Source: Bacilli bacterium (lineage in GTDB: Bacteria > Bacillota_I > Bacilli_A > RF39 > UBA660). From it: a DNA stretch of 64,000 nt. The stretch is from positions 6,046 to 70,045 of the forward strand of contig JAQUVS010000003.1 in the NCBI GenBank assembly GCA_028693275.1, in the 5' to 3' direction. The notes under the pieces were generated by a model. It saw only the letters and a program-made list of their open reading frames with translations, ran no database searches and was not told the DNA's origin. A program made the position numbers and the translations under genes. Below are positions 35,652-52,218 of this stretch, in pieces; within the stretch, counting starts at the first letter, position 1; the number at the start of each line of letters is the position of its first letter.

Positions 35652-35860
35652 ATAATAAAAAAAGACTATTCATCACATAAGGACGAATAATCGCGGTACC
35701 ACCTTAATTCATAGAAATATCCTATGCACTTGATACTATAAAGCGTTACCTTTTAAGCTCCAAAAATGTAATTCACAATTATTCCATGTTTATTTTCACC
35801 TACCATAAACTCTCTATGTATGAATTATAATTACTACTATTTTTCTTCATTGCTAATGAT
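35652..35860 (-). promoter_or_regulatory. T-box riboswitch leader of tyrS (Tyr specifier UAC)
   Basis: minus strand shows AGAGAG box, specifier ...GAAUUACAUU..., T-box AATTAAGGTGGTACCGCG, and terminator ATTATTCGTCC-ttat-GTGATGAATA followed by T7. Confidence 0.8.
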
Positions 35861-36559: not shown

Positions 36560-37498
36560 TTATTCCTCCTCTTTATACATTGAATCTATAAGATCAAATA
36601 AATTGTCTTCTAGTTTTTCATTTTCTGAAGCATCTTTTTCTAAAACTATTTCTTCTTCATCTTCTTCTATATCAAAATCAATATTGTCTTCTTCTATTTC
36701 TTCGTCTTCTTTAATATCTTCTATACTTGGAGTAGTTCTTACTCTTCTGCCAGTATATTTTTCGTGTTTAGCATCCTTATAATCTACATTATATTCTAAA
36801 CCTAAATCTTCAAAGTACTCTTCAGCATCAGCTAAAGTTACTTTTTCTACTGCTGGTGTAGTATCTACTTCGTTCATATCATAAAGAAGATTATCTTCAT
36901 AATTATCTACTTCTTCTACTGGTTCTTCTTTTTTTTCATTTAAATTTGTTAAACCTAAATCGTATGATAAATCTCCAAAAGCTTTTTCTCTTATTGAATC
37001 TAGATCAACATTTTTTCTTGATACATAGCTACTTGTTGGTTTAACACTCTTCTCTAATATTTCATCCTTTTTATAGTTTTTATCTAAAACTCCATAAATT
37101 GGTGAAATAATAGGCGTTGGTTGAAATTTTTTTGTATGTTCTTTTGTAGTAACTGTTTGAGAATATGTTTGTGAATAAGATGAATTACCATAAGGTTTAG
37201 ATGGTCTTTCATAAGTTGTTGTAGTAACTTCTTCTTTTTCTATAAAATCATCATCTTCAAAATATTTAATTTTAGTTGTTTCTTTTAAAATGTCTTTATC
37301 TGACATTATTTCTATTTCTTCTTTTTCCTCAATAATTGGTTCTTCTATTACTTCTTCAGCAACCGGAGCTACCTTTTTTTCTTCATAAATCTTTCTTGCC
37401 ACTACTTCACGTGGTTGTTTCTTTTCTTTTTGAGGTATTTCCTCTTCTACATATTCTTCTTCAAAGAATGTATTTTTAATTTTATCTAATAATCCCAT
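36560..37498 (-). CDS. Acidic (D/E-rich) low-complexity protein with N-terminal amphipathic MGLLDKIKN motif
   Basis: 312-aa ORF, more than 30% D+E; N-terminus nearly identical to the FtsY N-terminus. Confidence 0.45.
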   Translation of the reverse strand: MGLLDKIKNTFFEEEYVEEEIPQKEKKQPREVVARKIYEEKKVAPVAEEVIEEPIIEEKEEIEIMSDKDILKETTKIKYFEDDDFIEKEEVTTTTYERPSKPYGNSSYSQTYSQTVTTKEHTKKFQPTPIISPIYGVLDKNYKKDEILEKSVKPTSSYVSRKNVDLDSIREKAFGDLSYDLGLTNLNEKKEEPVEEVDNYEDNLLYDMNEVDTTPAVEKVTLADAEEYFEDLGLEYNVDYKDAKHEKYTGRRVRTTPSIEDIKEDEEIEEDNIDFDIEEDEEEIVLEKDASENEKLEDNLFDLIDSMYKEEE

Positions 37499-37510
37499 AA
37501 GAACACCATC

Positions 37511-38176
37511 CTACTCCGTTTCTTCTATTTCTATACTATTTTCATCAGGTAATTCACCTGAAGTATCTTCATAAGTACCATATTGTTCCACATAATCAAG
37601 AAAATTTCCTGTTTCTCTTTTTGATGTAAAAATATCATATACTTCCTCATTATAATTAAGGTTATTTGAACCAATTAATGAACCTATTATTAATTCATTA
37701 TATTTTATACTATTTAATATAATTGCTGAGTTTAATACTATATTATTAATGTCTTCATATTCTACATATGCTTCTATCTTTGCAAAATTGTACATAAATT
37801 CAATAAAATATTTATTGTAAACTTTATTTATTTCTAAATATCCTTTTTTGTTACCTATCTTAATTTCTTTAGAATAGAAACCTTTTTCATTTGTGCTATA
37901 AGTATTATCAACTTTATTATAGTATGAAATTATATCTACATATAAATATATTTTACTTTTATTGTAATATAAAATTGAATTTCTATCTGTTTTTGACTTT
38001 AAACTTATACCTTTTGGTAAATAATATTTATAGCCCTCTAATGACATGTTATTCATTTTTATTTTTTCATTTAATACTTTATTAGTTATTTCATCAATAC
38101 TTAAATTATCTGTTCTTACTATTTGACATCCTGTTATAAAAAAAACAGCAAAGAGTAATACCATTATTTTCTTCAT
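37511..38176 (-). CDS. Hypothetical lipoprotein
   Basis: signal peptide with lipobox FFITGC. Confidence 0.5.
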   Translation of the reverse strand: MKKIMVLLFAVFFITGCQIVRTDNLSIDEITNKVLNEKIKMNNMSLEGYKYYLPKGISLKSKTDRNSILYYNKSKIYLYVDIISYYNKVDNTYSTNEKGFYSKEIKIGNKKGYLEINKVYNKYFIEFMYNFAKIEAYVEYEDINNIVLNSAIILNSIKYNELIIGSLIGSNNLNYNEEVYDIFTSKRETGNFLDYVEQYGTYEDTSGELPDENSIEIEETE

Positions 38177-38970: not shown

Positions 38971-40266
38971 ATGAAGTTTATAACTGATATTGATATAGAA
39001 AAATATGAAGATTTTGTTTCAAGTAACAAAGAAAAATCACATTTCTTACAAAGTAGTTTTTGGGGAAATTTTAGTCAAAAAGAGAAAAGAATGATACCTC
39101 ACTATGTGGGTATTACTGATGATAATGATAAATTATTAGCTAGTGCACTATTACTTGAGAAGAAGTTACCTCTTGGTTTTAGTTATTTTTATTCTCCTAG
39201 GGGATATGTAATGGATTTTAATGATGATAAATTACTTAGTTTTTTTACTAATAATATTAAGACATTTGTTAAAAATAAAAAAGGGATATTTATTAAAATT
39301 GATCCCGATTTAATAATAAATAAATGGGATAAAGATGATAATCATATTGATTTAGATAATGATTATAAGAAAATTTTTGATAATTTGATTTTTTTAGGAT
39401 ACAAACATAAAGGATTTACTAAAAACTTTGAAACTAATCAACCTAGATATACTTTTAGAATAGATTTTAGTAATAAAACGGCAGAAGAAATTTTAGATAA
39501 TTTTTCTAAGACTACTAAACAAAGAATTAAAAAAGCAAAAGACTTAAATGTAAATGTCTTTATAGGTGATGAAAGTAATATTCATGATTTTTATAAGTTA
39601 ATGGAAATTACAGAAAACAGAAAAGATTTTGTTTCCCATAACGAAGAATATTACAAAGTATTATATGATATTTTGAAGAAAGAAGATAAATGTAATATTT
39701 TTTTGGGTGAGGTTAATATAAAAGAAATTATAGATAAGTATTTATTGGAAGTTAAGGATATAGATTTAGAACTAGAAGATTTAAGTAAGGAACTTAATTT
39801 AAGTAAAACAAAAAATACTAGAAAAAAAGAAATTGAAAAAAGAAAAGAAAAACTATTAACAGATATTAGTAATTATAAAAATTTATCAACAGAATATGGG
39901 GATAGAATTATTACTAATGCTCACTTTATAGTTGAATATGGGGATAAAGCATGGGTTTTATATGCTGGTAACCATAATATTTTAACTGAAGTTTGTGGAA
40001 ATTATTTAACATATAGTAATCATATTGAATACTATAAGAATAAAGGTATTAAGATATATGATCAATTTGGAACAATTGGGGATTTAAATAATAAAGAATT
40101 ATTTGGACTTCATGATTTTAAGAAAAAATTTGGTGGAGATTATATAGAATTTATTGGAGAATTTGATTTAATAACTAATAAGTTTATGTATTTTGTTTTT
40201 GTTAACTTAATTCCTTTTTATAGAAATATGGTTAAGAAGATAGCTAAAAGGAGGAAAATAAAATGA
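38971..40266 (+). CDS. FemAB-family peptidoglycan interpeptide-bridge aminoacyltransferase, paralog 1
   Basis: FemABX N-terminal pattern (FLQSSFWGNF...YSPRG), central coiled-coil insertion, C-terminal GNAT-like half. Confidence 0.75.
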   Translation: MKFITDIDIEKYEDFVSSNKEKSHFLQSSFWGNFSQKEKRMIPHYVGITDDNDKLLASALLLEKKLPLGFSYFYSPRGYVMDFNDDKLLSFFTNNIKTFVKNKKGIFIKIDPDLIINKWDKDDNHIDLDNDYKKIFDNLIFLGYKHKGFTKNFETNQPRYTFRIDFSNKTAEEILDNFSKTTKQRIKKAKDLNVNVFIGDESNIHDFYKLMEITENRKDFVSHNEEYYKVLYDILKKEDKCNIFLGEVNIKEIIDKYLLEVKDIDLELEDLSKELNLSKTKNTRKKEIEKRKEKLLTDISNYKNLSTEYGDRIITNAHFIVEYGDKAWVLYAGNHNILTEVCGNYLTYSNHIEYYKNKGIKIYDQFGTIGDLNNKELFGLHDFKKKFGGDYIEFIGEFDLITNKFMYFVFVNLIPFYRNMVKKIAKRRKIK

Positions 40267-41594
40267 AATTAATAGTACTTAACGAAGAAGAATTTAATCT
40301 TTTCGCTAGTAAACATCCTCAAGCATCTTTTTATCAAACTACTGATTGGGGTCACTTGAAGAAAACAAATGGATGGGATATGCACCTTGTTGGTTTTAAA
40401 GATGATAACAATTCCATAGTAGCTGCAACAATGCTTCTTTTTAAAACTACTCCAATTAAGATGAATATGATTTATTCTCCTAGAGGTTTTTTAATTGATT
40501 TTGATAATTTGGAATTATTGAAAGAGTTTACTAAAGAAATTGTTAATTATGCTAAGAAAAATAAAGGAATATTTATAAAATTAGATCCTTATATTATGTA
40601 CAAAGAAAGAGATATTGATGGTAATATTGTAAATGATGGAGTTAATAACGAAAAGGCTTTCAAAAACTTAATTAATTGTAAATATAAGCATTTTGGTTTT
40701 AACTTAATGCAGGATGCTCTTCAACCTAGATTTATTTTTGTTACTAAGACAAAGAATAGAACTATTGATGAAGTTATGAGTGAGATGGATTCTAAGACTA
40801 GACAAATTATTAGAAAAAATGAGAGATTATGCATTAAAACAAGAGAAATTGGTTATGATGAACTTGATAAATTCAAAGATATAATGCAACATACTGGAGA
40901 TAGAAGAGATTTTATTGATAGACCTTTAAAGTATTATCAAAATATGTATAGTAATCTTTCTAAGTCTGGAATTATTAAAATACTTTTAGCTGAGTTAGAT
41001 ACTGTTTCTTTGATTGAAAGTCTTAATAAAGAAATTGATGAATTAAAAAAAGATTACGATGACAGAAAATATAAATATGATAACGGTATTAATAAGATGA
41101 ATATAGATAAATTTAATTTAAAACAGAAGGAAGTAACAACAAATATTGAAAGAGTTAATAAGAAACTCGATGAAGTTTTAACTTTACAAAAAGAAAATGG
41201 AGAGATAATTACTCTTGGAGGAATATTATTTTTAATCCATGGTGGTGAAGTTTTATCTTTAGTTGGTGGTTCATATAAAAAGTTTATGGAATATCAATCT
41301 GCTTATACTATTCACTGGGCTGGTGTAAAAATGGCCATTGAAGGTAATTATGATAGATATAATTTCTACGGTATAACAGGTGACTTTAATCCTTCAAATC
41401 CTTTACTTGGTCTTTATTTATTTAAGAAAAGTTTTGGTGGAGTAGTTGTAGAATTAATTGGAGAGTTTGACCTTATAGTTAATAAACCCTTATATATTGG
41501 GTATAAAATAGCATTCGGATTATACCATTTTCTAAAAAATGGTTATTCAAGACTTATAAAGGTTGTTAAAATTGTTTTTTCAAAGCAAAAATAA
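40263..41594 (+). CDS. FemAB-family aminoacyltransferase, paralog 2
   Basis: FYQTTDWGHLK...YSPRGF; coiled-coil arm; 4-nt overlap with paralog 1. Confidence 0.75.
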   Translation: MKLIVLNEEEFNLFASKHPQASFYQTTDWGHLKKTNGWDMHLVGFKDDNNSIVAATMLLFKTTPIKMNMIYSPRGFLIDFDNLELLKEFTKEIVNYAKKNKGIFIKLDPYIMYKERDIDGNIVNDGVNNEKAFKNLINCKYKHFGFNLMQDALQPRFIFVTKTKNRTIDEVMSEMDSKTRQIIRKNERLCIKTREIGYDELDKFKDIMQHTGDRRDFIDRPLKYYQNMYSNLSKSGIIKILLAELDTVSLIESLNKEIDELKKDYDDRKYKYDNGINKMNIDKFNLKQKEVTTNIERVNKKLDEVLTLQKENGEIITLGGILFLIHGGEVLSLVGGSYKKFMEYQSAYTIHWAGVKMAIEGNYDRYNFYGITGDFNPSNPLLGLYLFKKSFGGVVVELIGEFDLIVNKPLYIGYKIAFGLYHFLKNGYSRLIKVVKIVFSKQK

Positions 41595-41595
41595 G

Positions 41596-41620
41596 CATAT
41601 AAATGCTTATTTTTTTATTT
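41596..41620. terminator. Bidirectional terminator between femAB-2 and the sigma gene
   Basis: hairpin AAGCATATAAATGCTT followed by T7. Confidence 0.5.
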
Positions 41621-42375
41621 TATAATCTTTTTGTATTTATTTTGTCTGATTTTATAAACAAAACAACAAATAAAATCAAACTTATTACTGAAAGAATTAA
41701 TAAAAGGATATTTAAATCAAAGATTGGATTTGAACTACCTAATTTTGCCGTTTCTAGTACGAAACTATCATTAAGTGGGACACTCCTATCTGTAGGTATT
41801 TCTAGTGCCTTACTTCTATATATTAAACTTACTGTAGATATTATAAAAGTAGAGAATAATCCAGTTAGTACTGTTCTTAATTTTTTGATTGATGTGTTAT
41901 ATTTCCACATAACTGTTCCTATTGGAATATTTAACATATCTGAAATTTCTTTATGACTCAATCCACATATTATTTTTAATGTTACTATCTGTCTTTGTTG
42001 TTCATTTAATGAGTTTATTAAATGATTACAAGAATCCATATCAACTAAAGTTTCTATAGACTTATCAAGAACAGGTATTTCACTTATGTCGTCGATTGAT
42101 ATTTCTTTTTTTTCTTTTCTTAATAACTGTAATGTTTCATTCTTAACAACTTTGTACAACCAACTAAGTTCATTTTTTGTTGGATATTTATTTGAATTTA
42201 GTTTATATAAGTTAAGCATTGTATTTTGGATTGCATCCTTGCTTATTTCATCATCTCTACATATTGAAAATGCAACACCATACATTACTCTAAAGTAATT
42301 ATCATATAGTAATTTAAATCCATATGAATCATAATTTTTTAATAATTCAAATATTGTACTTAGTTTTATATTCAT
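41620..42375 (-). CDS. ECF-type sigma-70 factor fused to a C-terminal two-TM membrane anchor
   Basis: region 2 (DAIQNTMLNLYK, WLYKVVKNETLQLLRK) and region 4 (LSHKEISDMLNIPIGTVMWKYNTSIKKLR), then two predicted TM helices; ATG at 42375 lies 1 nt after the upstream stop. Confidence 0.7.
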   Translation of the reverse strand: MNIKLSTIFELLKNYDSYGFKLLYDNYFRVMYGVAFSICRDDEISKDAIQNTMLNLYKLNSNKYPTKNELSWLYKVVKNETLQLLRKEKKEISIDDISEIPVLDKSIETLVDMDSCNHLINSLNEQQRQIVTLKIICGLSHKEISDMLNIPIGTVMWKYNTSIKKLRTVLTGLFSTFIISTVSLIYRSKALEIPTDRSVPLNDSFVLETAKLGSSNPIFDLNILLLILSVISLILFVVLFIKSDKINTKRL

Positions 42376-42376
42376 G

Positions 42377-43615
42377 TTATTCACCACTTATTCCATTACT
42401 TACATGTACTTCTATATTTTCATTTATTGTAACAAATTCATTATATTTAGAAGTCCAAACGATTGTTCCCTTTTCTTTTTCTGAATTAATATACTTGACC
42501 GTATAAGTAAATTTTAAACCTTTTTGATTATACTCATAGAAGACTTTTGCTAATTCACTTTCACTTGTTCCAATCAAACTATTAAAATATGGTTTACCTA
42601 AAGAATAAATTAATTCAACCTTATTATCTGTTTCTAATTTTCTAGTACCAGCTTTAACAGATTGAGAAATTAATTGACCATAGCCAACGTTCATATTATA
42701 TAGTAATCTAATTTTAATATCAAGTTTGCTATTTAATGTTGAGGCGTTTTCGCTTGTTACACCATAGAAATTAGGGATTGTAATACCCTTACCTCCTGAT
42801 ACATTTAATTTTAATTTAGTTTCTATTGTTATTAAATCACCCATTTTTACTGATTGACTTGTTACTCTTCCGATTTCATATTTGTCATTTATAACATCAG
42901 TATAATTACAAATTATATTATTTTCAGTACACCACTTAGTAACATCCTCTTTTGATTTATCTATTAAGTTTGGTACTTCAATTTTTTTGTCATATTCAAC
43001 ATTTCCCTTAGAAATTACAATTTCTAGACTGTCACTTCTTGTAAAATTATTTTCATCCGTTGTAGCACTGGAAAAGGTATATTTTATTAACTTACCTTTT
43101 TCTATTTTTATAGAATTTTCTTCTGTGATTACTGTACATGTTAACTTATTCTTATCTATCCATTCTTTTATCTGTCTACCAGTCATGTTACTTAAATCTG
43201 GTACTTTTATTTTTTCTGATGGATCATTTCCTTTACTTATTATTATTTTAAAAGTAGAATTTTTATTTATTTTTTTTCCTGGTTTTATACTTTGTTTGAT
43301 AACAAAGTCTTCTAATATTTTATCATCATATTTTTCTTCTTCTATTAATTGTATTTTATTTTTATCTGCCCATTTTTTTGCTATAGAAGATAATTGATTA
43401 TTAAAGTCTGGTACTTCTACTTTAGATATATTGATATAAATAAATAATGATACAAGAGCTAATAATAAACCTAATGATACTTGGATTATTATTTTTTTCT
43501 TCTTTCTATTAGAATACTTTTGATCCTTTTCTATATCATATTCTACTTCTTTTATTCCTGTTTTTCTTTTGATATCTTTTTCTTCTTCTGTGAAGTTATC
43601 TAAAAAACTATTCAT
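42377..43615 (-). CDS. Kinase-less membrane protein with 4-5 extracellular PASTA repeats
   Basis: 40-aa cytoplasmic N-terminus, one TM, repeated units beginning VPD/VPN/IPN and ending ISKG/VSGG; start ATG overlaps the ABC ATPase stop (ATGAATAG). Confidence 0.7.
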   Translation of the reverse strand: MNSFLDNFTEEEKDIKRKTGIKEVEYDIEKDQKYSNRKKKKIIIQVSLGLLLALVSLFIYINISKVEVPDFNNQLSSIAKKWADKNKIQLIEEEKYDDKILEDFVIKQSIKPGKKINKNSTFKIIISKGNDPSEKIKVPDLSNMTGRQIKEWIDKNKLTCTVITEENSIKIEKGKLIKYTFSSATTDENNFTRSDSLEIVISKGNVEYDKKIEVPNLIDKSKEDVTKWCTENNIICNYTDVINDKYEIGRVTSQSVKMGDLITIETKLKLNVSGGKGITIPNFYGVTSENASTLNSKLDIKIRLLYNMNVGYGQLISQSVKAGTRKLETDNKVELIYSLGKPYFNSLIGTSESELAKVFYEYNQKGLKFTYTVKYINSEKEKGTIVWTSKYNEFVTINENIEVHVSNGISGE

Positions 43616-44285
43616 CTTTCTTTAGTATTCCTTTCTCAAGTATTAAAGTAACATCAGATTTTTTAGCAATTTCTTTGGAATGAGTAACCATTATTACACA
43701 TTTTTTATGCTCATGGGCTAAACTTGCAAATAGTTTAACTATTTCTTCTGACATTTCTTGATCTAAATTACCTGTTGGTTCATCTGCTAAAATCAGATTA
43801 ACATCTGTAGATAGTGCTCTTGCTATTGCAACTCTTTGTTGTTCACCACCTGATAATTTATTTATAGTTCTATTTCCTTTTATACTGTCTATTCCTACAT
43901 ATTTTAGGAGATTTTTTGCAACTGTTTCTTTATTTTCTGGTAATTTATTATTTGTAATACTCATTGCTACTAGAATGTTTTCTATTCCTGTCATATATGG
44001 AATTAAGTTGTAACTTTGAAAAATAATTCCTACTTTATTTCTACGATAATTATCTAATCCTATTTGTCTTATATTTATATTTTCATAATTTATTTGTCCA
44101 CTTTTTTGTTCTTCTAGGGCTGATATTAAAGATAGAAAGGTCGTTTTCCCACTTCCACTTTCACCTAAAATTGTATAAAATTTACCCTTTTCAAAATCGT
44201 ATGTTATATCCTTTAAAATGTGCCTTATTATATCTCCATCTTGATAAAAATAACTTAAATTTGAAACGCTTAATATATTTTCCAT
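43608..44285 (-). CDS. ABC transporter ATP-binding protein (MacB/FtsE-like)
   Basis: Walker A GESGSGKTT, signature LSGGEQQRVAIARAL, Walker B ILADEPTGNLD; RBS AAGGAGGT. Confidence 0.9.
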   Translation of the reverse strand: MENILSVSNLSYFYQDGDIIRHILKDITYDFEKGKFYTILGESGSGKTTFLSLISALEEQKSGQINYENINIRQIGLDNYRRNKVGIIFQSYNLIPYMTGIENILVAMSITNNKLPENKETVAKNLLKYVGIDSIKGNRTINKLSGGEQQRVAIARALSTDVNLILADEPTGNLDQEMSEEIVKLFASLAHEHKKCVIMVTHSKEIAKKSDVTLILEKGILKKDE

Positions 44286-44295
44286 ATTTACCTCC

Positions 44296-45723
44296 TTACA
44301 TTAATATCTTTCTTGGATTTATTTTTAAAGTGTAATATATTGGTAATAAAGTAGATAGAGTTACACTACCTAAGCAAACTATATATATTATAAATATGGT
44401 ATTTATATCTAAACTAACACTATATTTACTCATTATTTCTTTTTTATCTATATTATTTTGATATCCAAATTCATCATATGAAATATTATCTTCTTTAGAA
44501 CTAGAAGATATTTCATTATCTAACATCTTATTTGAAATGTTTTTTGCTAATAGATTACCACTGAATATAGATATTGATACTGCTAGTAAAGATATTATTA
44601 TTGTCTCTAAAAGAACTTGGATAGCTATATTCATTTTATATTCTCCTAAAGCTAAATATATACCTATTTCATGTTTTCTTTCTCTAAAAAATAATACTGT
44701 TATTAATCCTATTATTATTATTGAAGCTATTATTGATGCATACATTATAAAGTTAGATAAGCTTTGCATATTTTGCATTGGTCCTATAGTTTTATTATAT
44801 AATTCAGAGTTATCAGTAAATTTATATCCTGTTAACAATTTTTTTATGTTTTCATTTTTAAAGTCATCTAATTCATTTATATTTTTTAAATTAAATGTTG
44901 CTTTTATATCGAAACTATCATAATCTTCTATATTTAATTCATCATAAGAAGTTATTATTTTATTATGTATAAATTCCATAGTTTTATTAGGCATATAAAT
45001 GTAATCTACTAATGGGTTATACTCTTCTACTATTTTCCCATCTTCGTCTTTAATTAGGTTTGTTTTAGCTTCAAAGATTCCAATTACTTTGTATTCTTCC
45101 TTTATAGATTTTAAAATTTTAAAATCTACTCCTGAATAATCTTCTATATTTTTACCTAAAGTTATTGTTGAACCTACTTTTAGATTATTCTTTTTTGCTA
45201 ACTCTTTTGAAATGATTACTACATTATTTCCTTTTTCTATATCATCTTTTGTATATGTTTTTCCATCTATTATGTTAAATTTATCTAAAGTTATCTCTCT
45301 TATTATAGTACTATTTGATCCAATAATAGAAAAACTATTTTCCTGTCCTATAATAGATATTTTATCCTCAAGACTTGATGTTCTAAATAAAATGTTTTCA
45401 TTTACTAGTTTTAATGTAGTACTTTGTAAATTATAATTGTAAGAATAATAATAATCTTTTATATATGTTGATTTTCCTATTTGATTGATTTGCTTTTCTG
45501 TTAATTTTTCTGGTTCTTTATCAGTTATTTTTTCATAATCTAATTCTATTTTTATTTCTACTGGCATTTTTTCTGTGATAGATTTCTCCGTGTTTGCTAA
45601 AGCTTTTTTAACAGATATAGATCCTGCTATGACATTACTAATTAATAATATTGCCAAAAATAGTATTAATGATTTCCCTTTCCTTCTTATTATACTTGTG
45701 TAACTTCTTCTAAAAAAATTCAT
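44296..45723 (-). CDS. FtsX/MacB-type ABC permease with large extracytoplasmic domain
   Basis: N-terminal TM, approx 290-aa extracellular domain, three C-terminal TM helices; RBS GGGAG. Confidence 0.75.
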   Translation of the reverse strand: MNFFRRSYTSIIRRKGKSLILFLAILLISNVIAGSISVKKALANTEKSITEKMPVEIKIELDYEKITDKEPEKLTEKQINQIGKSTYIKDYYYSYNYNLQSTTLKLVNENILFRTSSLEDKISIIGQENSFSIIGSNSTIIREITLDKFNIIDGKTYTKDDIEKGNNVVIISKELAKKNNLKVGSTITLGKNIEDYSGVDFKILKSIKEEYKVIGIFEAKTNLIKDEDGKIVEEYNPLVDYIYMPNKTMEFIHNKIITSYDELNIEDYDSFDIKATFNLKNINELDDFKNENIKKLLTGYKFTDNSELYNKTIGPMQNMQSLSNFIMYASIIASIIIIGLITVLFFRERKHEIGIYLALGEYKMNIAIQVLLETIIISLLAVSISIFSGNLLAKNISNKMLDNEISSSSKEDNISYDEFGYQNNIDKKEIMSKYSVSLDINTIFIIYIVCLGSVTLSTLLPIYYTLKINPRKILM

Positions 45724-45838
45724 ATAAATCTCCCTTCTTTTTTTTAGATTTATCCCCCTATATATTTAGATGCAAAAAGGTGGATATTTTATTGGTTTTT
45801 AGATAAAAAAAAGAACAAATTTATTTTGTCCTTATATT

Positions 45839-47092
45839 TTATCTTCTAATTAAGTTTTTTATCTTCTTTATTAATTTATATATATAATAAAAGTTAGATA
45901 TCTTTAATTCAAATTGACCTATATATTCTATAACATTACCAGTGAATCCTTTTTTAAATTCATAAATACCATAGTATTTATTTTCTTTATTGAAGTCACC
46001 TGTTATACCATAAAAATTACAGTATTTAAAATTTTCTTGGTATGCATCTTTTATATGTTTATCATACATTGCATACTTTGGAGTGAAGCTCTTATATTCT
46101 TCTAATACTCCACTTGATAACGTTAAGTATTCATTCCCTGATTTTATTGATAATAGGCATCCTATATCTTTACCATTAGGATTCTCTTCCTTAAATTTTT
46201 TAGCTTTATCTAATTCTAATTGATATTTGTCTAAAAGCTTATCTGAAGTTTCTTTTTGATTTAGTAGCTTACTACCTACATTATCTTTATTTAGTTTTTC
46301 AATAATAATTTTATTATTTTCTAGTTCATTATTATATAATTCAAGAGTACTATTGTAGTAGATCGTTGGATCTAAATATGCTATATATATAGTCATGAGA
46401 TTACTCATGTTTTTATACATATTTTGATAATATTTTAGACTTCTATGAAAGAAGTCTTTTCTTTTAGATGTTAATTCAAATATTTCTGTTAGAGTTGGTA
46501 AATCTTCTATTTTACCTTTTCTTACTTGAAGACCTTTTTTATAACAAGAGTCTATATTTTTTCTTGTACTTTTTGAAAATTTTTGTTTTTTTGTTTCATA
46601 GTCTTCATCTAATTCTAATCTATATGCCCATCTTGCTTGAAGTGAATCTAAATAAATATTGAAACCAAAATGTTTATAATTTAATTTTTTTAGATTAGCT
46701 ATAGTAAAATCATCTTTATCATCATTTATTATTTCACCTTCACTACTTCTAGTTCTATAGATAACATTTGGATCAATAGTTAAGATGAATCCATTATTTT
46801 TCTTTATATATTTCTTTAATTCTTCTGTAAAAAAAGATAATAATTCATAGTTATGATAATCCAAAATCATTCCCCTAGGAGAATAAAAAATACTTTTATT
46901 TAAAATTGTTTTTGTTTCTAATAATAGAGATGTAGCTATTACTTTACCATCTTTTTTTATACCAACAAGATGAGGAATATCATTACTTTCTTTTTTTAAA
47001 TTACCTAGTTCTATTGTTTGCATGAAAGAGGTTTGACTATTATTACTTAAAAATTCATTATATTCATCTTTATTTAAAATCTCAAATTTCAT
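45839..47092 (-). CDS. FemAB-family aminoacyltransferase, paralog 3
   Basis: SFMQTIELGNLK...YSPRG; coiled-coil insertion; followed by short terminator GGACAAA/TTTGTTC + T8. Confidence 0.75.
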   Translation of the reverse strand: MKFEILNKDEYNEFLSNNSQTSFMQTIELGNLKKESNDIPHLVGIKKDGKVIATSLLLETKTILNKSIFYSPRGMILDYHNYELLSFFTEELKKYIKKNNGFILTIDPNVIYRTRSSEGEIINDDKDDFTIANLKKLNYKHFGFNIYLDSLQARWAYRLELDEDYETKKQKFSKSTRKNIDSCYKKGLQVRKGKIEDLPTLTEIFELTSKRKDFFHRSLKYYQNMYKNMSNLMTIYIAYLDPTIYYNSTLELYNNELENNKIIIEKLNKDNVGSKLLNQKETSDKLLDKYQLELDKAKKFKEENPNGKDIGCLLSIKSGNEYLTLSSGVLEEYKSFTPKYAMYDKHIKDAYQENFKYCNFYGITGDFNKENKYYGIYEFKKGFTGNVIEYIGQFELKISNFYYIYKLIKKIKNLIRR

Positions 47093-47096
47093 ATTA

Positions 47097-48737
47097 TTAC
47101 CTCTTTTTTCTTATTATTTTACTTATAAATTTATTAACTAATTCTTTTCCAAATATTCCAACTAGTACTCTATTTTTTAGATTTATTAAAACAAATATTC
47201 CTCCACCAACAATTGTATATAGTAATATTATTGGGATATTTAATAATCTATTAGTTTGATCTAATGGAATAACAAACTTCATTGATAAAAGAACTAAACT
47301 CATTATTATTACTGATACTATGATTTTAATTGTTTTATTAAGTGTGTCTTCATACTCTACTTTGTACTTACTATGTAAGAAGGCTAAACATATAATTACA
47401 CATATAAGGTATCCTAAAATTGTTGCTGTTGTTGCTCCATGATATGCTGGAATTCCTAATTTATGAAATCCATATACTAAAGGGGCATTGAAGATTACTT
47501 TTACTAATAATCCTGTAATTAGTGATATAAAGACAACTTTGTATTCTTTTAATACCTGAGTAATTGTAATTGTTGCTGTAAATAAAGTTGTTGCTAATGC
47601 AGTATAAATATAATAACTGAAAACATCTGTTCCTAATTTACTATATCCATAAAATATATCCCATACTGGTTGAGCTAAGATGCTTAAGCCAACTGTCATT
47701 GGTAATACTAAAAAGATTATTACTTGAATAGTTTGATTTATTTTTTTTCTAACATCAACTATGTCATTTTTAACAAAACTTCTAGTTAAATTTGGTATTA
47801 AACTTACCATTACTCCTGTTGCTATTGAGATAACTATCATAGTTAATTTAGAACCCCAAGTTGAAAATATACTTATTACTGATTCTGCTGTTGTTACCTT
47901 AAAAGATAGGTCATTAACTAATATTTTTACTAACATAACTACATCTACTGATGTATAAAGTGACTTAAATATATCTATCATTATAAAAGGGAAAGCATAT
48001 ATTAAAATTTTTCTTAATATTTGTTTATCAGAAATAAATGGTTCTTCTGTATTTGTGTTATTTTTTTCAAGTAATTCCTTGTGTTTATTGGATTTTCTTA
48101 CAAGGTATAACCAAGAAATGATGGCTCCTATTGTTGCAGAAAAGACTGATATACCTACTGTTGTTTTTAATGATAAGTTAAATACTTTTAATGATAAATA
48201 ACTTCCTAAAACTATAATTATTACTCTTACTAATTGTTCAAGTACTTGGGATACTGATGTTGGAGTAATAAATCTATGTCCTTGTAAGTACCCTCTGTAT
48301 ATACTTAATATTGGTACTATTAATATTGCTGTTGATATTACTCTAATAACAAATGTAATATCTTGGATTGAATTTCCACCTTCTACATTTCCTATTATTA
48401 AAATAGCTAATGGTTTTGCAAAGATCATTAAAATTAAGAAAGAAAATACTCCCATAATTGTTAATGCTTTTTTACCAATACTAAAAGCTCTTTCTTTTGC
48501 ATTATAATATCCTAAAACATTATATTCACTTATTATTTTACTCATTGCTAAAGGTATTCCTGCTGATGATATTCCTAAAAATATTGAATATATCGAATAG
48601 GCATATCCGTATAGTGCTCCACCTTGATTTCCAATTATTGCATAAAATGGAATAACATATATAATTCCTAAAATCTTACTTAATACAATACCCATTGTTG
48701 CTATAAATGCACCTTGGATAAACGAATTTTTTTTCAT
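47097..48737 (-). CDS. MurJ/MviN-family flippase (YtgP/SpoVB-like polysaccharide biosynthesis protein)
   Basis: 546 aa, about 14 TM helices; N-terminus LSKILGIIYVIPFYAIIGNQGGALYGYAY resembles B. subtilis YtgP. Confidence 0.75.
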   Translation of the reverse strand: MKKNSFIQGAFIATMGIVLSKILGIIYVIPFYAIIGNQGGALYGYAYSIYSIFLGISSAGIPLAMSKIISEYNVLGYYNAKERAFSIGKKALTIMGVFSFLILMIFAKPLAILIIGNVEGGNSIQDITFVIRVISTAILIVPILSIYRGYLQGHRFITPTSVSQVLEQLVRVIIIVLGSYLSLKVFNLSLKTTVGISVFSATIGAIISWLYLVRKSNKHKELLEKNNTNTEEPFISDKQILRKILIYAFPFIMIDIFKSLYTSVDVVMLVKILVNDLSFKVTTAESVISIFSTWGSKLTMIVISIATGVMVSLIPNLTRSFVKNDIVDVRKKINQTIQVIIFLVLPMTVGLSILAQPVWDIFYGYSKLGTDVFSYYIYTALATTLFTATITITQVLKEYKVVFISLITGLLVKVIFNAPLVYGFHKLGIPAYHGATTATILGYLICVIICLAFLHSKYKVEYEDTLNKTIKIIVSVIIMSLVLLSMKFVIPLDQTNRLLNIPIILLYTIVGGGIFVLINLKNRVLVGIFGKELVNKFISKIIRKKR

Positions 48738-48800: not shown

Positions 48801-51635
48801 CTATTTAGCCACTATGTTTACTATTCTATTTTTAATTACTATTACTTTTACTATTTCTTTTTCTTCTAAATGTTTTTGTACATTTGAGTCACTTAAAGCT
48901 TTTTCTTTTATTTCTTCTTCAGTATCATTAATTGCACAAATAATAGTTCCTCTTAATTTACCATTTACTTGAACAGCTATTTCTTTTTCTTCATCTATTA
49001 TTTTTTCTTCATCATATGTTGGCCATGCTGATTCACATAAAGGATTTCCTAAATGATTAATTTCATTTAATTCTTCTGTTATATGAGGAGCTATAGGATT
49101 TAATAAAGTAAGTAGTGTTCTATAGTCTTTTTGACTTATTTCTTCTTTATCAGTCATTTCATTAGTTAATATCATTAAAGCAGAAACTGCTGTGTTAAAT
49201 TTCATATTATCTATGTCTTCTGTGACTTTTTTTATTGTTTTATTAATTATCTTTTCTAAAGAAGATGAGTATTCATCTGAGTTATTTAATTTGTCTTGTA
49301 ATTTAATAACTTTATCTAAGAATCTTCTACAACCATTTAGACTTTGTTCGCTCCAAGCAGCTTCTTTTTCATAGTCTCCTATAAACATTTCATAGCATCT
49401 TAGTGCATCTGCTCCTTGTTTTTTTACAACGTCATCGGGATTTATAACATTACCCTTAGACTTAGACATTTTTTCTCCACCTTCACCAAGAATCATTCCG
49501 TGGGCTACTCTTGTCTTAAAAGGTTCTTTGTAAGGAACTAATCCAATGTTATATAGGAATTGATTCCAGAAACGAGCATATAATAAGTGTCTTGTAGCAT
49601 GTTCCATTCCACCATTATACCAATCAAGTTGTCCCCAATAATTCAATGCTTCTTTTGAAACAAATTCTTTATCATTTTTAGGATCCATGTATCTTAACCA
49701 GTACCAAGAAGATCCAGCCCAGTTAGGCATTGTATCTGTTTCTCTTTTAGCTGGTTTTCCGCATTTAGGACATGTTGTATTTACCCAACTTTCTATTTTA
49801 GCAAGTGGACTTTCACCATCATCTGTTGGTTCATACTCAGCTACATCTGGTAATAAAACAGGAAGGTCTTCTTCTTTAACTGGAACCCATCCACATTCAT
49901 CACAACATACTAAAGGTATTGGTTCTCCCCAGAATCTTTGTCTTGTAAATATCCAATCTTGTAATTTATAATTTGTTTTCTTATAACCGATTCCTTCTTT
50001 TTCTAAATACTCTAACATTTTATTTATAGATTCTTTTTTATTTGTTAAACCATTTAAGATACCAGAATTAACCATTTTGCCGTCTCCAGCATAATAATTA
50101 TTTTCTGCTAGTAAATTTCTGAATGTAGTAATATGTAATTCATCTTTTACTTCTTTTTCTATTATTTCTCTTGATACCCATTCAATTTCAAATTTACCTT
50201 TTTCGTCTTCATCAAGATTATTTGTTTCTTTCTTATCAGAAATAAGTTTAAATAATAATCCAATACTTTCTATTTCATAAGCTTTATTCTTATTATAAGC
50301 AAAATAATGATGATTAATTGGACTAATTTCTTTGATAAATCTAATATCTGTGTATCCAGTTTCTTCTTTTATTTCTCTTACAGCTGTTTCTAATGCAGTC
50401 TCATTATCTTTTCTTGTTCCCCCAATAAATAATCTTCCACCTAATTCTTTCCAATTAAGAGTTAAATATTTATTATTTTCTTCGTCATAAATAACTGCTA
50501 CTATACTATTTTTTTGTTCTTCATTTTCTCTTTGTTCACCAGTTATTTGTTCTATAACAGGGATTATTTCTATATTAAATTTACTTGCAAATTCATAGTC
50601 TCTATCATCATGTGCTGGAACAGCCATAATAGCTCCTGTTCCATAGTTCATCATAACATAATCTGAAATATAAATAGGAATTTCTTTATTTGTAATAGGA
50701 TTAATAGCTGTTAATCCATCAATTCTCACACCAGTTTTTTCTTTTGTCATATTTAATCTTTCAAATTCTGTTTTGAAATTTGTTTTTTCTCTATAATCTA
50801 TTATTTCATTCATGTTGTTTATTATTCCACTATATAGGTCTATATATGGATGTTCTGGGGCTATTACCATGAAAGTAACTCCATATAAAGTATCTGGTCT
50901 TGTTGTATATACTTTTAATTTTTCATCTATTTCTTTAATTTTAAAATCTACTTCTGCTCCTGTTGATTTTCCTATCCAATTGATTTGAGCAGTTTTTATT
51001 CTTTCTTGGAAGTCAGTCTCATCTAAACCTGTTATTAAGTCTTCTGCATAGTCTGACATTCTTAGTACCCATTGGTCTTTTTCTTTTTGAACTACAACTG
51101 ATCCACATCTTTCACAAGTTCCTCCGCTAGAATCTTCATTTGATAAACCTGTTTTACAATTAGGGCACCAGTTTATACTTTTTTTAGCTTTATATGCCAT
51201 ATCGTGTTCATAAAATTTAATAAATTGCCATTGAGTCCATTTATAGTATTCTGGATCAGTAGTAGAAAATTCTCTACTCCAATCAAATGAAATACCAAGA
51301 TCTTTTATTTGTCCCTTAAATGTTTTTATGTTTTCAGCTACTGCTTCTTTAGGATGAATATGATTTTTAATAGCATATTGTTCTGCTGGAGCCCCAAAAG
51401 CATCCCATCCCATTGGAAATAATACATTATATCCCATCATTCTTTTCTTTCTTGCCATTGTATCAATTGCTGTATAGCTTCTTACATGACCAACATGTAA
51501 TCCAGATCCAGATGGATATGGAAATTCTACAAGATAAAAATATTTTTCCTTATCACTATTATTTTTTGCAACAAAAGTATTATTATCATCCCAATATTTT
51601 TGCCATTTTTTTTCTATATCATTTATTGTCATCAT
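48801..51635 (-). CDS. leuS: Leucyl-tRNA synthetase carrying an inserted Nudix hydrolase domain
   Basis: HVGH and KMSKS motifs, CP1 editing domain; about 150 extra residues including a perfect Nudix box between ...IPVIEQI and AGDGKMVNSG; terminator hairpin AGTGGCTAAATAGCCACT + T-run at the 3' end. Confidence 0.95.
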   Translation of the reverse strand: MMTINDIEKKWQKYWDDNNTFVAKNNSDKEKYFYLVEFPYPSGSGLHVGHVRSYTAIDTMARKKRMMGYNVLFPMGWDAFGAPAEQYAIKNHIHPKEAVAENIKTFKGQIKDLGISFDWSREFSTTDPEYYKWTQWQFIKFYEHDMAYKAKKSINWCPNCKTGLSNEDSSGGTCERCGSVVVQKEKDQWVLRMSDYAEDLITGLDETDFQERIKTAQINWIGKSTGAEVDFKIKEIDEKLKVYTTRPDTLYGVTFMVIAPEHPYIDLYSGIINNMNEIIDYREKTNFKTEFERLNMTKEKTGVRIDGLTAINPITNKEIPIYISDYVMMNYGTGAIMAVPAHDDRDYEFASKFNIEIIPVIEQITGEQRENEEQKNSIVAVIYDEENNKYLTLNWKELGGRLFIGGTRKDNETALETAVREIKEETGYTDIRFIKEISPINHHYFAYNKNKAYEIESIGLLFKLISDKKETNNLDEDEKGKFEIEWVSREIIEKEVKDELHITTFRNLLAENNYYAGDGKMVNSGILNGLTNKKESINKMLEYLEKEGIGYKKTNYKLQDWIFTRQRFWGEPIPLVCCDECGWVPVKEEDLPVLLPDVAEYEPTDDGESPLAKIESWVNTTCPKCGKPAKRETDTMPNWAGSSWYWLRYMDPKNDKEFVSKEALNYWGQLDWYNGGMEHATRHLLYARFWNQFLYNIGLVPYKEPFKTRVAHGMILGEGGEKMSKSKGNVINPDDVVKKQGADALRCYEMFIGDYEKEAAWSEQSLNGCRRFLDKVIKLQDKLNNSDEYSSSLEKIINKTIKKVTEDIDNMKFNTAVSALMILTNEMTDKEEISQKDYRTLLTLLNPIAPHITEELNEINHLGNPLCESAWPTYDEEKIIDEEKEIAVQVNGKLRGTIICAINDTEEEIKEKALSDSNVQKHLEEKEIVKVIVIKNRIVNIVAK

Positions 51636-52211: not shown

Positions 52212-52218
52212 AAGTTAT

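What the first reader, a model, noticed from the sequence alone, without database searches (positions are those of the whole stretch)
42377..43615. Multi-PASTA membrane protein without kinase or transpeptidase domain
The 412-aa protein has a short cytoplasmic N-terminus, one TM helix, and then four or five tandem units of about 65-70 aa. Each unit starts with VPD/VPN/IPN and ends in I/VSKG or SGG, which is the classical PASTA beta3-alpha signature. No catalytic domain is present. The approximately 40-aa basic cytoplasmic tail is the only portion available for intracellular signalling, possibly contacting the sigma factor N-terminal domain or the ABC ATPase.
Basis: partly seen in the sequence, partly recalled or inferred. 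Interest (0 to 1): 0.55.

Follow-up and report, generated by a model that had tools for sequence, protein, structure and literature searches.

The report
PASTA-repeat partner of a MacB-type ABC transporter
This gene encodes a membrane protein made only of cell-wall-binding PASTA repeats; it belongs to a large uncharacterised family that is almost always encoded directly behind a MacB/FtsX-type ABC transporter, so it looks like the transporter's third subunit, not a stand-alone sensor.

Summary
Window 42377-43615 (minus strand) is a 412-aa ORF with a 41-aa cytoplasmic tail, one TM helix, four PASTA units that each pass Pfam's threshold, and a fifth divergent PASTA-like unit. It has no kinase or transpeptidase domain. 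AlphaFold and Foldseek put it closest to the PrkC and PknB ectodomains.

The main result comes from comparison. The protein belongs to a large family: 633 clusters at 50% identity with E<=1e-30, including cultured Enterococcus, Vagococcus, Sutcliffiella and Culicoidibacter, annotated only as 'PASTA domain-containing protein'. In 35 of 38 loci with enough flank, across Bacilli and Clostridia down to about 30% identity, the gene follows a 4-TM MacB/FtsX-type permease and an ABC ATPase. In 30 of those loci the start overlaps the ATPase stop by the same 8 nt.

The tail is not simply basic. It carries an N-terminal motif (M-S-[SD]-F-L-x-x-F), found in 137 of 177 relatives.

The adjacent regulator varies: a membrane-tethered ECF sigma here, sigma/anti-sigma pairs, two-component systems, or none. 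The sigma link is therefore lineage-specific wiring.

Best reading: a non-catalytic PASTA subunit of a type VII ABC mechanotransducer acting on the cell wall. No paper describing this module was found. It is a new variant of known kinds, of moderate to high interest.

The parts
45764..45795 (-). Conserved bipartite motif CCAATAAAA-N12-TGCAT(C/T)(C/T)AAATA, about 40 nt upstream of the permease ATG. Candidate promoter for the operon, possibly read by the operon's own ECF sigma.
   Evidence: Invariant blocks at fixed spacing in all 5 loci of the sigma-2TM clade, within otherwise diverged AT-rich spacers. One match in the window against 0 expected in 100 shuffles. Function is inferred.
44296..45723 (-). 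MacB/FtsX-type (type VII) ABC permease, 475 aa. It has 4 TM helices and a roughly 280-aa extracytoplasmic domain between TM1 and TM2.
   Evidence: Pfam FtsX 5.8e-11 and MacB_PCD 2.7e-9. Hydropathy gives 4 TM helices. A profile of 12 orthologues hits MacB 5lil (1.9e-6), Spr0695 5xu1 (9e-6), the YknZ ectodomain 5f9q and FtsX 8idb.
43608..44285 (-). ABC ATPase (nucleotide-binding domain), 225 aa. Its stop codon overlaps the PASTA gene's start by 8 nt.
   Evidence: Pfam ABC_tran 8.2e-32. Best NCBIfam matches are MacB-clade ATPases (lactococcin-972-group, DevA, LolD, FtsE), all below their cut-offs. The junction reads GATGAATAG.
42377..43615 (-). The finding: a 412-aa bitopic protein with 4 PASTA units plus 1 PASTA-like unit and no catalytic domain.
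43580..43615 (-). Residues 1-12, the conserved N-terminal cytoplasmic motif M-N-S-F-L-D-N-F-T-E-E-E (family consensus M-S-[SD]-F-L-x-x-F). Predicted disordered, so probably a short docking peptide.
   Evidence: S2, F3, L4, F7 and E9 are at least 90% conserved in A1. F3, L4 and F7 are at least 90% conserved in the 30-56% identity set A2. The motif is present in 137 of 177 relatives. pLDDT is below 50 for residues 1-29.
43430..43492 (-). Transmembrane helix, residues 42-62, preceded by a KKKK run (N-terminus inside).
   Evidence: Hydropathy. AlphaFold predicts a helix over residues 31-62.
43223..43420 (-). PASTA unit 1 (residues 66-131).
   Evidence: 44.8 bits, E=1.2e-11. Secondary structure is beta-alpha-beta-beta-beta.
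42998..43210 (-). PASTA unit 2 (residues 136-206), with a conserved inserted loop N-F-T-R-S-D (189-194).
   Evidence: 24.8 bits. N189, F190, R192 and D194 are invariant in A1. R192 is invariant and D194 at least 90% conserved in A2.
42788..42982 (-). PASTA unit 3 (residues 212-276).
   Evidence: 33.5 bits. 99.7% hhalign probability against unit 1.
42596..42787 (-). PASTA unit 4 (residues 277-340). Its helix is reduced to one turn in the model.
   Evidence: 26.6 bits. Secondary structure from DSSP.
42392..42595 (-). Unit 5 (residues 341-408), a divergent PASTA-like C-terminal domain and the most conserved part of the family. In longer relatives the unit 4 + unit 5 pair is duplicated in tandem.
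   Evidence: 13.2 bits, E=0.087. Full-length hhalign alignment to units 1-3 at 61-72% probability. Same beta-alpha-beta-beta-beta order at pLDDT about 74-87. Dense invariant columns 336-405. Duplications seen in P0124-P0130.
41620..42375 (-). ECF-type sigma factor, 251 aa from the ATG that lies 1 nt after the PASTA stop (255 aa from the GTG at 42387). Its sigma-4 region runs directly into a C-terminal 2-TM hairpin (about 41647-41874) and a conserved C-terminal tail, KSDKINTK here.
   Evidence: Pfam Sigma70_r2, r4 and r4_2. NCBIfam sigma70-ECF at 66.9 bits, above its 42.9 cut-off. TM helices at 172-190 and 219-252. Junction sequence. 115 homologous clusters of mostly 240-270 aa; hydropathy finds two TM helices in 78 and one in 37, and the C-terminal motif is seen in the sequences inspected.

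Best explanation
The 412-aa protein is the dedicated third component of a MacB/FtsX-type (type VII, mechanotransmission) ABC system, encoded as permease, then ATPase, then PASTA protein.

Proposed anatomy:
- A short disordered cytoplasmic tail whose conserved N-terminal peptide (SFLxxF) docks on the cytoplasmic face of the transporter, either the ATPase or the basic N-terminal helix of the permease.
- One TM helix that packs against the permease.
- An elongated string of four PASTA domains plus a specialised C-terminal PASTA-like domain, reaching into the wall and binding peptidoglycan or lipid II-type ligands.

Proposed action: ATP binding and hydrolysis move the permease's large outer domain. 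The PASTA subunit either targets this machine to sites of nascent wall or is itself moved by it. Cytoplasmic ATP turnover would thereby be coupled to an event in the wall, such as remodelling or removal of a wall-bound molecule.

In this genome the three genes are translationally coupled to a fourth: an ECF sigma factor held at the membrane by its own 2-TM hairpin. A conserved promoter-like motif precedes the operon. The module is therefore probably an autoregulated envelope-stress unit in this lineage.

What is shown: the domain content, the family, the invariant gene linkage, the conserved motifs and the variable regulators. What is inferred: complex formation, where the motif docks, the ligand, and the sigma circuit.
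For: - Domain identity: Pfam PASTA E=2.1e-32, four units each above threshold. AlphaFold mean pLDDT 83.5 with five alpha/beta units. Top Foldseek hits are the PrkC/Stk1 ectodomain 3py9 (3.5e-13), 3m9g, PknB 2kui and 5e12, then PBP2x and PBP1 PASTA domains.
- Family size: 633 clusters at 50% identity with E<=1e-30, mostly 400-560 aa and matching the full profile in one stretch.
- Linkage: 35 of 38 loci with at least 2.3 kb of upstream sequence have the ATPase immediately upstream and the permease before it. 30 of them share an identical 8-nt overlap.
- Breadth of linkage: it holds in Sutcliffiella horikoshii, Enterococcus ureasiticus, Culicoidibacter larvae, Vagococcus, Oscillospiraceae and two long multi-PASTA classes, at about 30-36% identity.
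- Exceptions: the three loci without the transporter are deletion variants. In L039 and L036 the ORF starts at the juxtamembrane Lys run, so the N-terminal motif and the transporter were lost together.
- Cytoplasmic motif: conserved in 137 of 177 relatives although the linker between it and the membrane varies from about 20 to about 170 aa.
- Permease class: it matches MacB, Spr0695, YknZ and FtsX.
- Regulators differ between clades while the three-gene core does not.
- Operon structure here: a 10-nt gap, an 8-nt overlap and a 1-nt gap between the four genes. The upstream motif is conserved.
Against:
- No ligand can be inferred from sequence. PASTA domains differ in whether and what they bind (general knowledge).
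- In one gut species the permease is split or the whole module is deleted in some strains, so the system is dispensable there.
- The candidate promoter has no canonical ECF AAC...CGT signature, and nothing links it experimentally to this sigma.
- A Wukongibacter homologue of the sigma factor is not next to an ABC-PASTA module.
Confidence: 0.62

Rival explanations
1. Sensor or anti-sigma reading. The PASTA ectodomain senses muropeptides or lipid II, and the cytoplasmic tail binds and controls the downstream ECF sigma factor. The ABC transporter is only a regulon member.
For: The sigma gene starts 1 nt after the PASTA stop. This sigma has no sensory domain of its own, only a 2-TM hairpin with a loop of about 30 aa, so it needs a partner to sense anything. 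A second clade also carries a sigma/anti-sigma pair at the locus.
Against: The tail is 41 aa and has no anti-sigma domain hit. The sigma factors of the two clades are barely related (24% identity, E=0.003). In the second clade a separate single-pass protein sits in the anti-sigma position. Many members have a two-component system or no regulator nearby, yet keep the N-terminal motif. The sigma family also occurs without the module.
Confidence: 0.12
2. Bce-like resistance and flux-sensing module. The transporter frees lipid II-cycle intermediates from wall-active antimicrobials such as bacitracin, lantibiotics or lactococcin-972-like peptides. The PASTA array presents lipid II to it. Transport activity is relayed within the membrane to the tethered sigma factor (or, in other lineages, to the kinase), which induces the operon.
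For: Envelope-stress regulators (ECF sigma, OmpR-type two-component systems) recur beside the core. A BceAB-like ATPase with a 789-aa permease lies next to the module in L019, L022 and L032. The ATPase's best NCBIfam match is the lactococcin-972-group model, although at 182 bits it is below the 254.85-bit cut-off. In the window the operon sits among three FemAB genes and a MurJ-like flippase. Strain-level loss fits an accessory resistance trait.
Against: The permease is the 4-TM MacB type, not the 10-TM BceB type. The neighbouring kinases have outer loops of about 50-150 aa (L034 and L051 about 120-150 aa, L050 about 50 aa), whereas BceS-type intramembrane-sensing kinases, from general knowledge, have almost none. 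In Vagococcus, L054 and L055 the module lies in housekeeping surroundings with no regulator. The FemAB/MurJ neighbourhood is not conserved in other loci.
Confidence: 0.25
3. Remnant or stand-alone wall anchor. The protein is a PASTA kinase ectodomain that lost its kinase, now acting alone as a peptidoglycan-binding scaffold or decoy. Its position behind the ABC genes has no functional meaning.
For: The closest sequence and structure matches are PASTA kinase ectodomains. Truncated copies persist without the ABC genes in some strains.
Against: The gene order and the 8-nt overlap are kept across orders and classes at about 30% identity. The cytoplasmic motifs are conserved and unlike a kinase linker. 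The fifth unit is strongly conserved. None of this is expected of a decaying remnant.
Confidence: 0.05

Closest known systems
PASTA Ser/Thr kinases (PrkC/Stk1 of Bacillus and Staphylococcus, PknB of Mycobacterium, StkP of Streptococcus)
   Same: Same topology: N-terminus inside, a single TM helix, then a linear array of 3-5 extracellular PASTA domains. These are the best sequence hits (3m9g 5.4e-9; NF033483 positions 313-523) and the best fold hits (3py9, 2kui, 5e12).
   Different: There is no kinase domain. The cytoplasmic part is 41 aa with an N-terminal SFLxxF motif. The gene lies behind a MacB-type ABC pair, not in a kinase/phosphatase operon. The last unit is a divergent, family-specific domain.
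Class B penicillin-binding proteins with C-terminal PASTA domains (PBP2x, S. aureus PBP1, SpoVD, PBP2B)
   Same: The PASTA fold (Foldseek hits 7o4c, 5oau, 2z2l at 1e-5 to 1e-6) and its location outside the membrane.
   Different: There is no transpeptidase or dimerisation domain. This protein has five units rather than two, and the units follow the TM helix directly.
Type VII ABC mechanotransducers with extracytoplasmic partners: FtsEX with PcsB, CwlO, EnvC or RipC (and the SweCD cofactors), MacAB-TolC, YknWXYZ, LolCDE
   Same: A 4-TM FtsX/MacB-fold permease with a large outer domain plus a separate ATPase, and a genetically linked partner that works outside the membrane.
   Different: The partner is a bitopic PASTA-repeat protein, not a coiled-coil hydrolase activator or a membrane-fusion protein. 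The gene order is permease, ATPase, partner. The FtsE and FtsX models score far below their cut-offs.
BceAB-BceRS-type antimicrobial peptide sensing and detoxification modules
   Same: An ABC transporter of the FtsX superfamily encoded with an envelope-stress regulator that may depend on the transporter for sensing.
   Different: The permease has 4 TM helices, not 10. Here the regulator is a membrane-tethered ECF sigma factor. There is an extra PASTA subunit, and many family members have no regulator at all.
ECF sigma factors with regulatory C-terminal extensions (Casas-Pastor et al. 2021, PMC7826278)
   Same: [quoted passage not shown]
   Different: The extension is a 2-TM hairpin with a conserved C-terminal tail (KSDKINTK here). 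That paper's main text mentions TM-containing extensions only for ECF263, with 5 or 7 helices, and never mentions PASTA.

Membership tests
PASTA domain (Pfam PF03793) | Sequence profile match at or above the gathering score | tested here: met
   Whole protein: 111.3 bits, E=2.1e-32. Units 1-4 scanned individually: 44.8, 24.8, 33.5 and 26.6 bits, all above 23.2. Unit 5: 13.2 bits, below threshold.
PASTA domain (Pfam PF03793) | Small alpha/beta fold (one helix packed on a three-stranded sheet), arranged as beads on a string | tested here: met
   AlphaFold mean pLDDT 83.5 with five units; four have a full helix and unit 4 has one helical turn. The 31 best Foldseek PDB hits are all PASTA domains.
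PASTA domain (Pfam PF03793) | Binding of beta-lactams, muropeptides, lipid II or peptidoglycan | not testable with these tools
   Needs binding assays with the purified ectodomain.
PASTA Ser/Thr kinase (NCBIfam NF033483, Stk1/PknB family) | N-terminal Hanks-type kinase domain | tested here: not met
   129.7 bits against a 450-bit cut-off; only model positions 313-523 of 563 are matched. No Pkinase hit in Pfam. The cytoplasmic part is 41 aa.
Class B PBP with PASTA domains | Transpeptidase and PBP dimerisation domains | tested here: not met
   PASTA is the only Pfam family hit.
Membrane-bound anti-sigma factor | Cytoplasmic anti-sigma domain, and conserved pairing with a cognate sigma gene | tested here: not met
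   Residues 1-65 give no anti-sigma family hit. Sigma adjacency is absent or of a different kind in most clades.
Type VII (MacB/FtsX) ABC transporter (applies to the two upstream genes) | FtsX-fold 4-TM permease with a large domain between TM1 and TM2, plus an ABC ATPase | tested here: met
   Pfam FtsX, MacB_PCD and ABC_tran. Four TM helices. Profile hits to MacB, Spr0695, YknZ and FtsX structures.
FtsEX proper | Equivalog-level match to FtsE and FtsX, with ftsE-ftsX gene order | tested here: not met
   FtsE TIGR02673: 166.8 bits, below the 264.85 cut-off. FtsX_actino: 18.9 bits, far below 250. The gene order is permease then ATPase.
BceAB-type transporter | 10-TM permease with its large outer domain between TM7 and TM8, paired with an intramembrane-sensing kinase | tested here: not met
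   The permease has 4 TM helices. The regulator here is a sigma factor. Kinases in related loci have outer loops of about 50-150 aa.
The uncharacterised 'SFLxxF-PASTA5' family defined here | N-terminal SFLxxF motif, one TM helix, four PASTA units and a conserved divergent C-terminal unit, encoded directly after a MacB-type permease and ATPase | tested here: met
   All of these features are present in the window protein.

The most novel reading that the evidence does not exclude
The permease-ATPase-PASTA trio is a widespread, so far unrecognised FtsEX-like machine of Bacillota. It would use ATP hydrolysis to couple the cytoplasm to peptidoglycan or lipid II through a PASTA-repeat subunit. That would make it a third functional class of PASTA proteins beside kinases and PBPs. 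It would be plugged into different envelope-stress regulators in different lineages, including a membrane-tethered ECF sigma factor that depends on the complex for its signal.
Probability: 0.35. Interest if true: 0.78.

Novelty: new variant of a known kind. Interest (0 to 1): 0.6.

Why it matters
PASTA domains are studied almost entirely as the sensor ends of Ser/Thr kinases and class B PBPs. A large third class, hard-wired to a MacB/FtsX-type ABC system, would link two active fields: wall sensing by PASTA domains and mechanotransmission by type VII ABC transporters.

It would also give a concrete, testable candidate for how some Gram-positive bacteria sense or handle wall precursors and wall-active antibiotics. 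Cultured hosts (Enterococcus ureasiticus, Vagococcus, Sutcliffiella horikoshii, Culicoidibacter larvae) make genetics possible.

There is a practical point as well: some database entries for this family are mis-annotated as serine/threonine kinases.

Tried and rejected
- Complex prediction. I built a paired, linker-joined alignment (PASTA N-terminus + permease + ATPase, 14 loci) to test whether the tail docks on the transporter.
- The genome-contig scan gave only 3 loci. Synteny therefore rests on metagenome loci and exact look-ups.
- Literature. Searches combining 'PASTA domain' with ECF sigma + ABC transporter, anti-sigma, FtsX, MacB, 'PASTA domain-containing protein' + ABC transporter, and domain-architecture terms found nothing describing this module. 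The ECF reclassification paper does not mention PASTA.
- PADLOC. Hits to PD-T4-6 fall on the C-terminal part of those models (positions 314-489 of 547). I judged them to be shared PASTA repeats, not evidence of phage defence.
- Anti-sigma reading: rejected as the general explanation (see rivals).
- Canonical promoters. I looked for an ECF AAC-N16/17-CGT promoter upstream of the operon and found none. The sigma-70-like scan found fewer sites than the shuffles (35 against 47.8) and is uninformative in 26% GC DNA.
- A resemblance between the downstream half of the promoter motif and the Sutcliffiella upstream region (TGCATCCTAAATA) has different spacing. I treat it as unexplained.
Full report
1. 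THE OBSERVATION

The coordinates 42377-43615 hold a complete ORF on the minus strand, ATG to TAA, 412 aa. The plus strand is full of stop codons. The window has 25.8% G+C. It carries a class B RNase P RNA and two T-box leaders, which points to a low-GC member of the Bacillota.

Hydropathy finds one TM helix at about residues 42-62. The sequence KKKK precedes it, so the N-terminus is cytoplasmic. Pfam reports only PASTA (PF03793), at E=2.1e-32 with four stretches.

I cut the protein into six pieces and scanned each:
- Units 1-4 (residues 66-135, 136-211, 212-277, 278-340) each pass the 23.2-bit gathering score, at 44.8, 24.8, 33.5 and 26.6 bits.
- The C-terminal piece (341-412) scores 13.2 bits (E=0.087).
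- The N-terminal 65 residues match nothing relevant.

Profile-profile comparison on an alignment of 27 diverse relatives gives 96.5-99.7% probability among units 1-4. Unit 5 aligns at full length to units 1-3 at 61-72% probability (E about 1e-4), and not at all to unit 4 (0.3% probability, E=0.24).

An AlphaFold model built from 30 homologues has mean pLDDT 83.5:
- residues 1-29 are disordered;
- residues 31-62 form a helix;
- five successive alpha/beta units follow;
- unit 5 has the same beta-alpha-beta-beta-beta order as units 1-3;
- unit 4 has only one helical turn.

The 31 best Foldseek matches in the PDB are all PASTA domains. They are led by the S. aureus PrkC/Stk1 ectodomain (3py9, 3.5e-13; 3m9g) and M. 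tuberculosis PknB (2kui, 5e12), followed by PBP2x and PBP1. Sequence search of the PDB agrees (3m9g, 5.4e-9).

No kinase or transpeptidase is present. The NCBIfam PASTA-kinase model is matched only over its positions 313-523, at 129.7 bits against a 450-bit cut-off.

- the gene is on the minus strand;
- the repeat count is four true PASTA units plus one divergent unit;
- the tail is not simply basic (12 K/R against 10 D/E).

2. SURROUNDINGS IN THE WINDOW

Four minus-strand genes are packed together:
- a 475-aa permease (44296-45723; Pfam FtsX and MacB_PCD; four TM helices with about 280 aa between TM1 and TM2);
- a 225-aa ABC ATPase (43608-44285);
- the PASTA gene;
- an ECF-type sigma factor.

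The ATPase stop and the PASTA start overlap by 8 nt (GATGAATAG). The most plausible sigma start is the ATG at 42375, 1 nt after the PASTA stop, which gives 251 aa.

The sigma factor is unusual. Its sigma-4 region runs straight into two TM helices (172-190 and 219-252), which are separated by about 30 aa and followed by a short tail.

A profile of 12 orthologous permeases hits MacB (5lil, 1.9e-6), S. pneumoniae Spr0695 (5xu1), the YknZ ectodomain (5f9q) and FtsX (8idb). The transporter therefore belongs to the type VII (mechanotransmission) class. It is not FtsEX proper and not a Bce-type transporter.

Three FemAB-family genes and a MurJ-like flippase flank the operon. This neighbourhood is not kept in other genomes.

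3. THE FAMILY

The first homology search found 320 proteins, all PASTA-only. The 120 listed are 403-449 aa and 46-87% identical to the query. One of them was seen on 180 to 225 contigs of gut metagenomes.

A full scan of 1.84 billion representatives with the family profile gave 7419 hits. Of these, 633 have E<=1e-30, and most are 400-560 aa and match the whole profile in one stretch.

A profile search for named members found Culicoidibacter larvae, Sutcliffiella horikoshii and S. halmapala, Enterococcus ureasiticus, Vagococcus carniphilus and V. salmoninarum, Granulicatella balaenopterae and an Oscillospiraceae MAG. They are annotated only as 'PASTA domain-containing protein', or wrongly as a Ser/Thr kinase.

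Two features define the family beyond the repeats:
- Unit 5 is the most conserved region (dense invariant columns 336-405). In longer relatives the unit 4 + unit 5 pair is duplicated two to four times.
- The extreme N-terminus carries the motif M-S-[SD]-F-L-x-x-F, often continued as ...x-x-x-x-Y. F3, L4 and F7 are at least 90% conserved in a set that is only 30-56% identical to the query. A loose pattern finds the motif in 137 of 177 relatives, usually at residue 3. Most of the relatives that lack it are giant surface proteins, fragments or near-variants.

Between the motif and the membrane lies a low-complexity linker of about 20 to 170 aa. A second conserved patch, E-[VI]-x-x-D-x-x-Y-x-x-K-K, sits next to the TM helix.

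A conserved short peptide at the end of a disordered linker of variable length is what one expects of a docking motif. That reading is an inference.

4. GENE LINKAGE

I collected 56 related loci and scored their ORFs against the window's proteins.

Of 38 loci with at least 2.3 kb upstream of the PASTA gene, 35 have the ATPase immediately upstream with the permease before it. In 30 of them the overlap is the same 8 nt.

The linkage holds in all eight divergent members that I looked up individually:
- Sutcliffiella, E. ureasiticus, C. larvae and Oscillospiraceae;
- an 809-aa member with duplicated units, a 742-aa long multi-PASTA member, a JGI metagenome member and Vagococcus.

The three exceptions are deletion variants within one gut species. 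In two of them (L039, L036) the ORF now starts at the juxtamembrane MKKKKKQK, so the N-terminal motif, the transporter and the regulator were removed together. The third (L043) retains only a permease remnant fused to the C-terminal part of the PASTA gene. Other strains of that species have a split permease (L006, L014).

The regulator varies:
- a sigma factor with a 2-TM hairpin, downstream of the PASTA gene (window, L008-L013, L041);
- a barely related 183-aa sigma (24% identity, E=0.003) plus a single-pass 206-aa protein, upstream (L003, L005, L007, L016 and others);
- a further sigma/anti-sigma-like pair in L004;
- an OmpR-type response regulator plus histidine kinase, upstream (L034, E. 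ureasiticus, C. larvae);
- a BceAB-like transporter alongside (L019, L022, L032);
- no regulator, in housekeeping surroundings: Vagococcus between glyS and dnaG-rpoD, L055 beside rplL, and L054 beside pyrG.

The sigma-2TM family is itself sizeable: 115 clusters, mostly 240-270 aa, with a conserved tail F-[KI]-x-S-D-[KR]-I-P-T-K in the sequences inspected. Hydropathy finds two TM helices in 78 of them and one in 37. Its Wukongibacter member is not next to an ABC-PASTA module.

The constant unit is therefore permease-ATPase-PASTA. The sigma link is wiring specific to this lineage.

5. A CANDIDATE PROMOTER

In the five loci of the sigma-2TM clade, the spacer upstream of the permease is diverged apart from two blocks at fixed spacing: CCAATAAAA-N12-TGCAT(C/T)(C/T)AAATA. 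In the window this lies at 45764-45795, about 40 nt upstream of the ATG. It occurs once, against 0 expected by chance.

It does not look like a sigma-70 promoter or a canonical ECF promoter. I propose it as the promoter of an autoregulated operon. That is an inference.

6. MECHANISM

Shown:
- the domain content and topology;
- a large family with conserved cytoplasmic motifs and a specialised last domain;
- near-invariant, translationally coupled linkage to a type VII ABC pair;
- interchangeable regulators.

Inferred:
- The three proteins form one complex.
- The N-terminal peptide docks on the cytoplasmic face of the transporter. Its acidic character and the basic N-terminal helix of the permease (MNFFKRS..RRKGKS) suggest one possible pairing.
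- The PASTA string binds peptidoglycan or lipid II-type ligands, as related PASTA domains do (general knowledge of PrkC, PknB, StkP and PBP2x).
- ATP-driven movement of the permease's outer domain is coupled to that binding.

Whether the output is wall remodelling (FtsEX-like), removal of a wall-bound antimicrobial (Bce-like), or signalling to the tethered sigma factor cannot be decided here. The housekeeping contexts favour a constitutive wall function. The regulator-rich contexts and the strain-level loss favour a stress or resistance role. I give 0.62 to the general 'third subunit of a type VII ABC machine' statement and 0.25 to the specific Bce-like version.

7. COMPARISON AND NOVELTY

The protein meets the tests for the PASTA domain. 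It fails the tests for PASTA kinase, class B PBP and anti-sigma factor. Its neighbours meet the test for MacB/FtsX-type ABC transporters and fail those for FtsEX proper and BceAB.

Six literature searches found no description of a PASTA protein partnered with an ABC transporter. The ECF reclassification paper does not mention PASTA. Absence from this library is not proof of absence from the literature.

I rate the finding as a new variant of known kinds, with interest 0.6.

Noticed in passing
window 48801-51644 (-): The leucyl-tRNA synthetase (947 aa) carries a NUDIX domain (Pfam PF00293, 40.2 bits, above the 21.1 cut-off) at residues 380-495. It is inserted directly after the editing-domain match (residues 222-377), and the Nudix box GGTRKDNETALETAVREIKEETGY is visible. 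This is an unusual synthetase-Nudix fusion.
   Followed up: no
window 41620-42375 (-), about 41647-41874 for the hairpin; relatives P0300-P0414: The ECF sigma factor is fused at its C-terminus to a 2-TM hairpin and a conserved tail (F-[KI]-x-S-D-[KR]-I-P-T-K in the sequences inspected). It represents a family of 115 clusters, mostly 240-270 aa, in Clostridia and Bacilli; hydropathy finds two TM helices in 78 and one in 37. The main text of the ECF reclassification paper mentions TM extensions only with 5 or 7 helices. The Wukongibacter member lies in a different context.
   Followed up: partly
window 45764-45795 (-): Conserved bipartite motif CCAATAAAA-N12-TGCATYYAAATA upstream of the operon, in five related loci. 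It is unlike sigma-70 or canonical ECF promoters. The Sutcliffiella locus has TGCATCCTAAATA next to its ribosome-binding site but with different upstream spacing. This is unexplained.
   Followed up: partly
window 38971-40266 (+), 40263-41594 (+), 45839-47092 (-), 47097-48737 (-): Three FemAB-family peptidyltransferase genes and a MurJ/Polysacc_synt-type flippase surround the operon. The neighbourhood is wall-precursor themed, but it is not conserved in other loci.
   Followed up: partly
window 17104-17448 (-), 35676-35859 (-), 52031-52212 (-): A class B RNase P RNA and two T-box leaders, one of them upstream of the LeuRS gene.
   Followed up: no
L006, L014, L015, L020, L021, L031, L036, L039, L043: Within one abundant gut species the module varies between strains. 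Some have a split permease and have lost the sigma/anti-sigma pair. Others carry a deletion that leaves a PASTA ORF starting at MKKKKKQK, with no N-terminal motif and no ABC genes.
   Followed up: partly
P0124-P0130, P0272-P0274 (relatives); P0131, P0142, P0149, P0154, P0160, P0166, P0299: Longer relatives repeat the unit 4 + unit 5 pair two to four times. A separate class of 740-1019 aa has 9 or more PASTA units and an N-terminal K-S-[FY]-L-[DE]-S motif followed by 'PESF'. The one member of that class that I looked up (P0299) is also behind a MacB-type ABC pair.
   Followed up: partly
window 36560-37498 (-), 37511-38176 (-), 54656-56005 (-): Three sizeable ORFs with no Pfam match: a 312-aa highly acidic protein, a 221-aa protein whose N-terminus looks like a lipoprotein signal (ends ...ITGC), and a 449-aa protein.
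   Followed up: no
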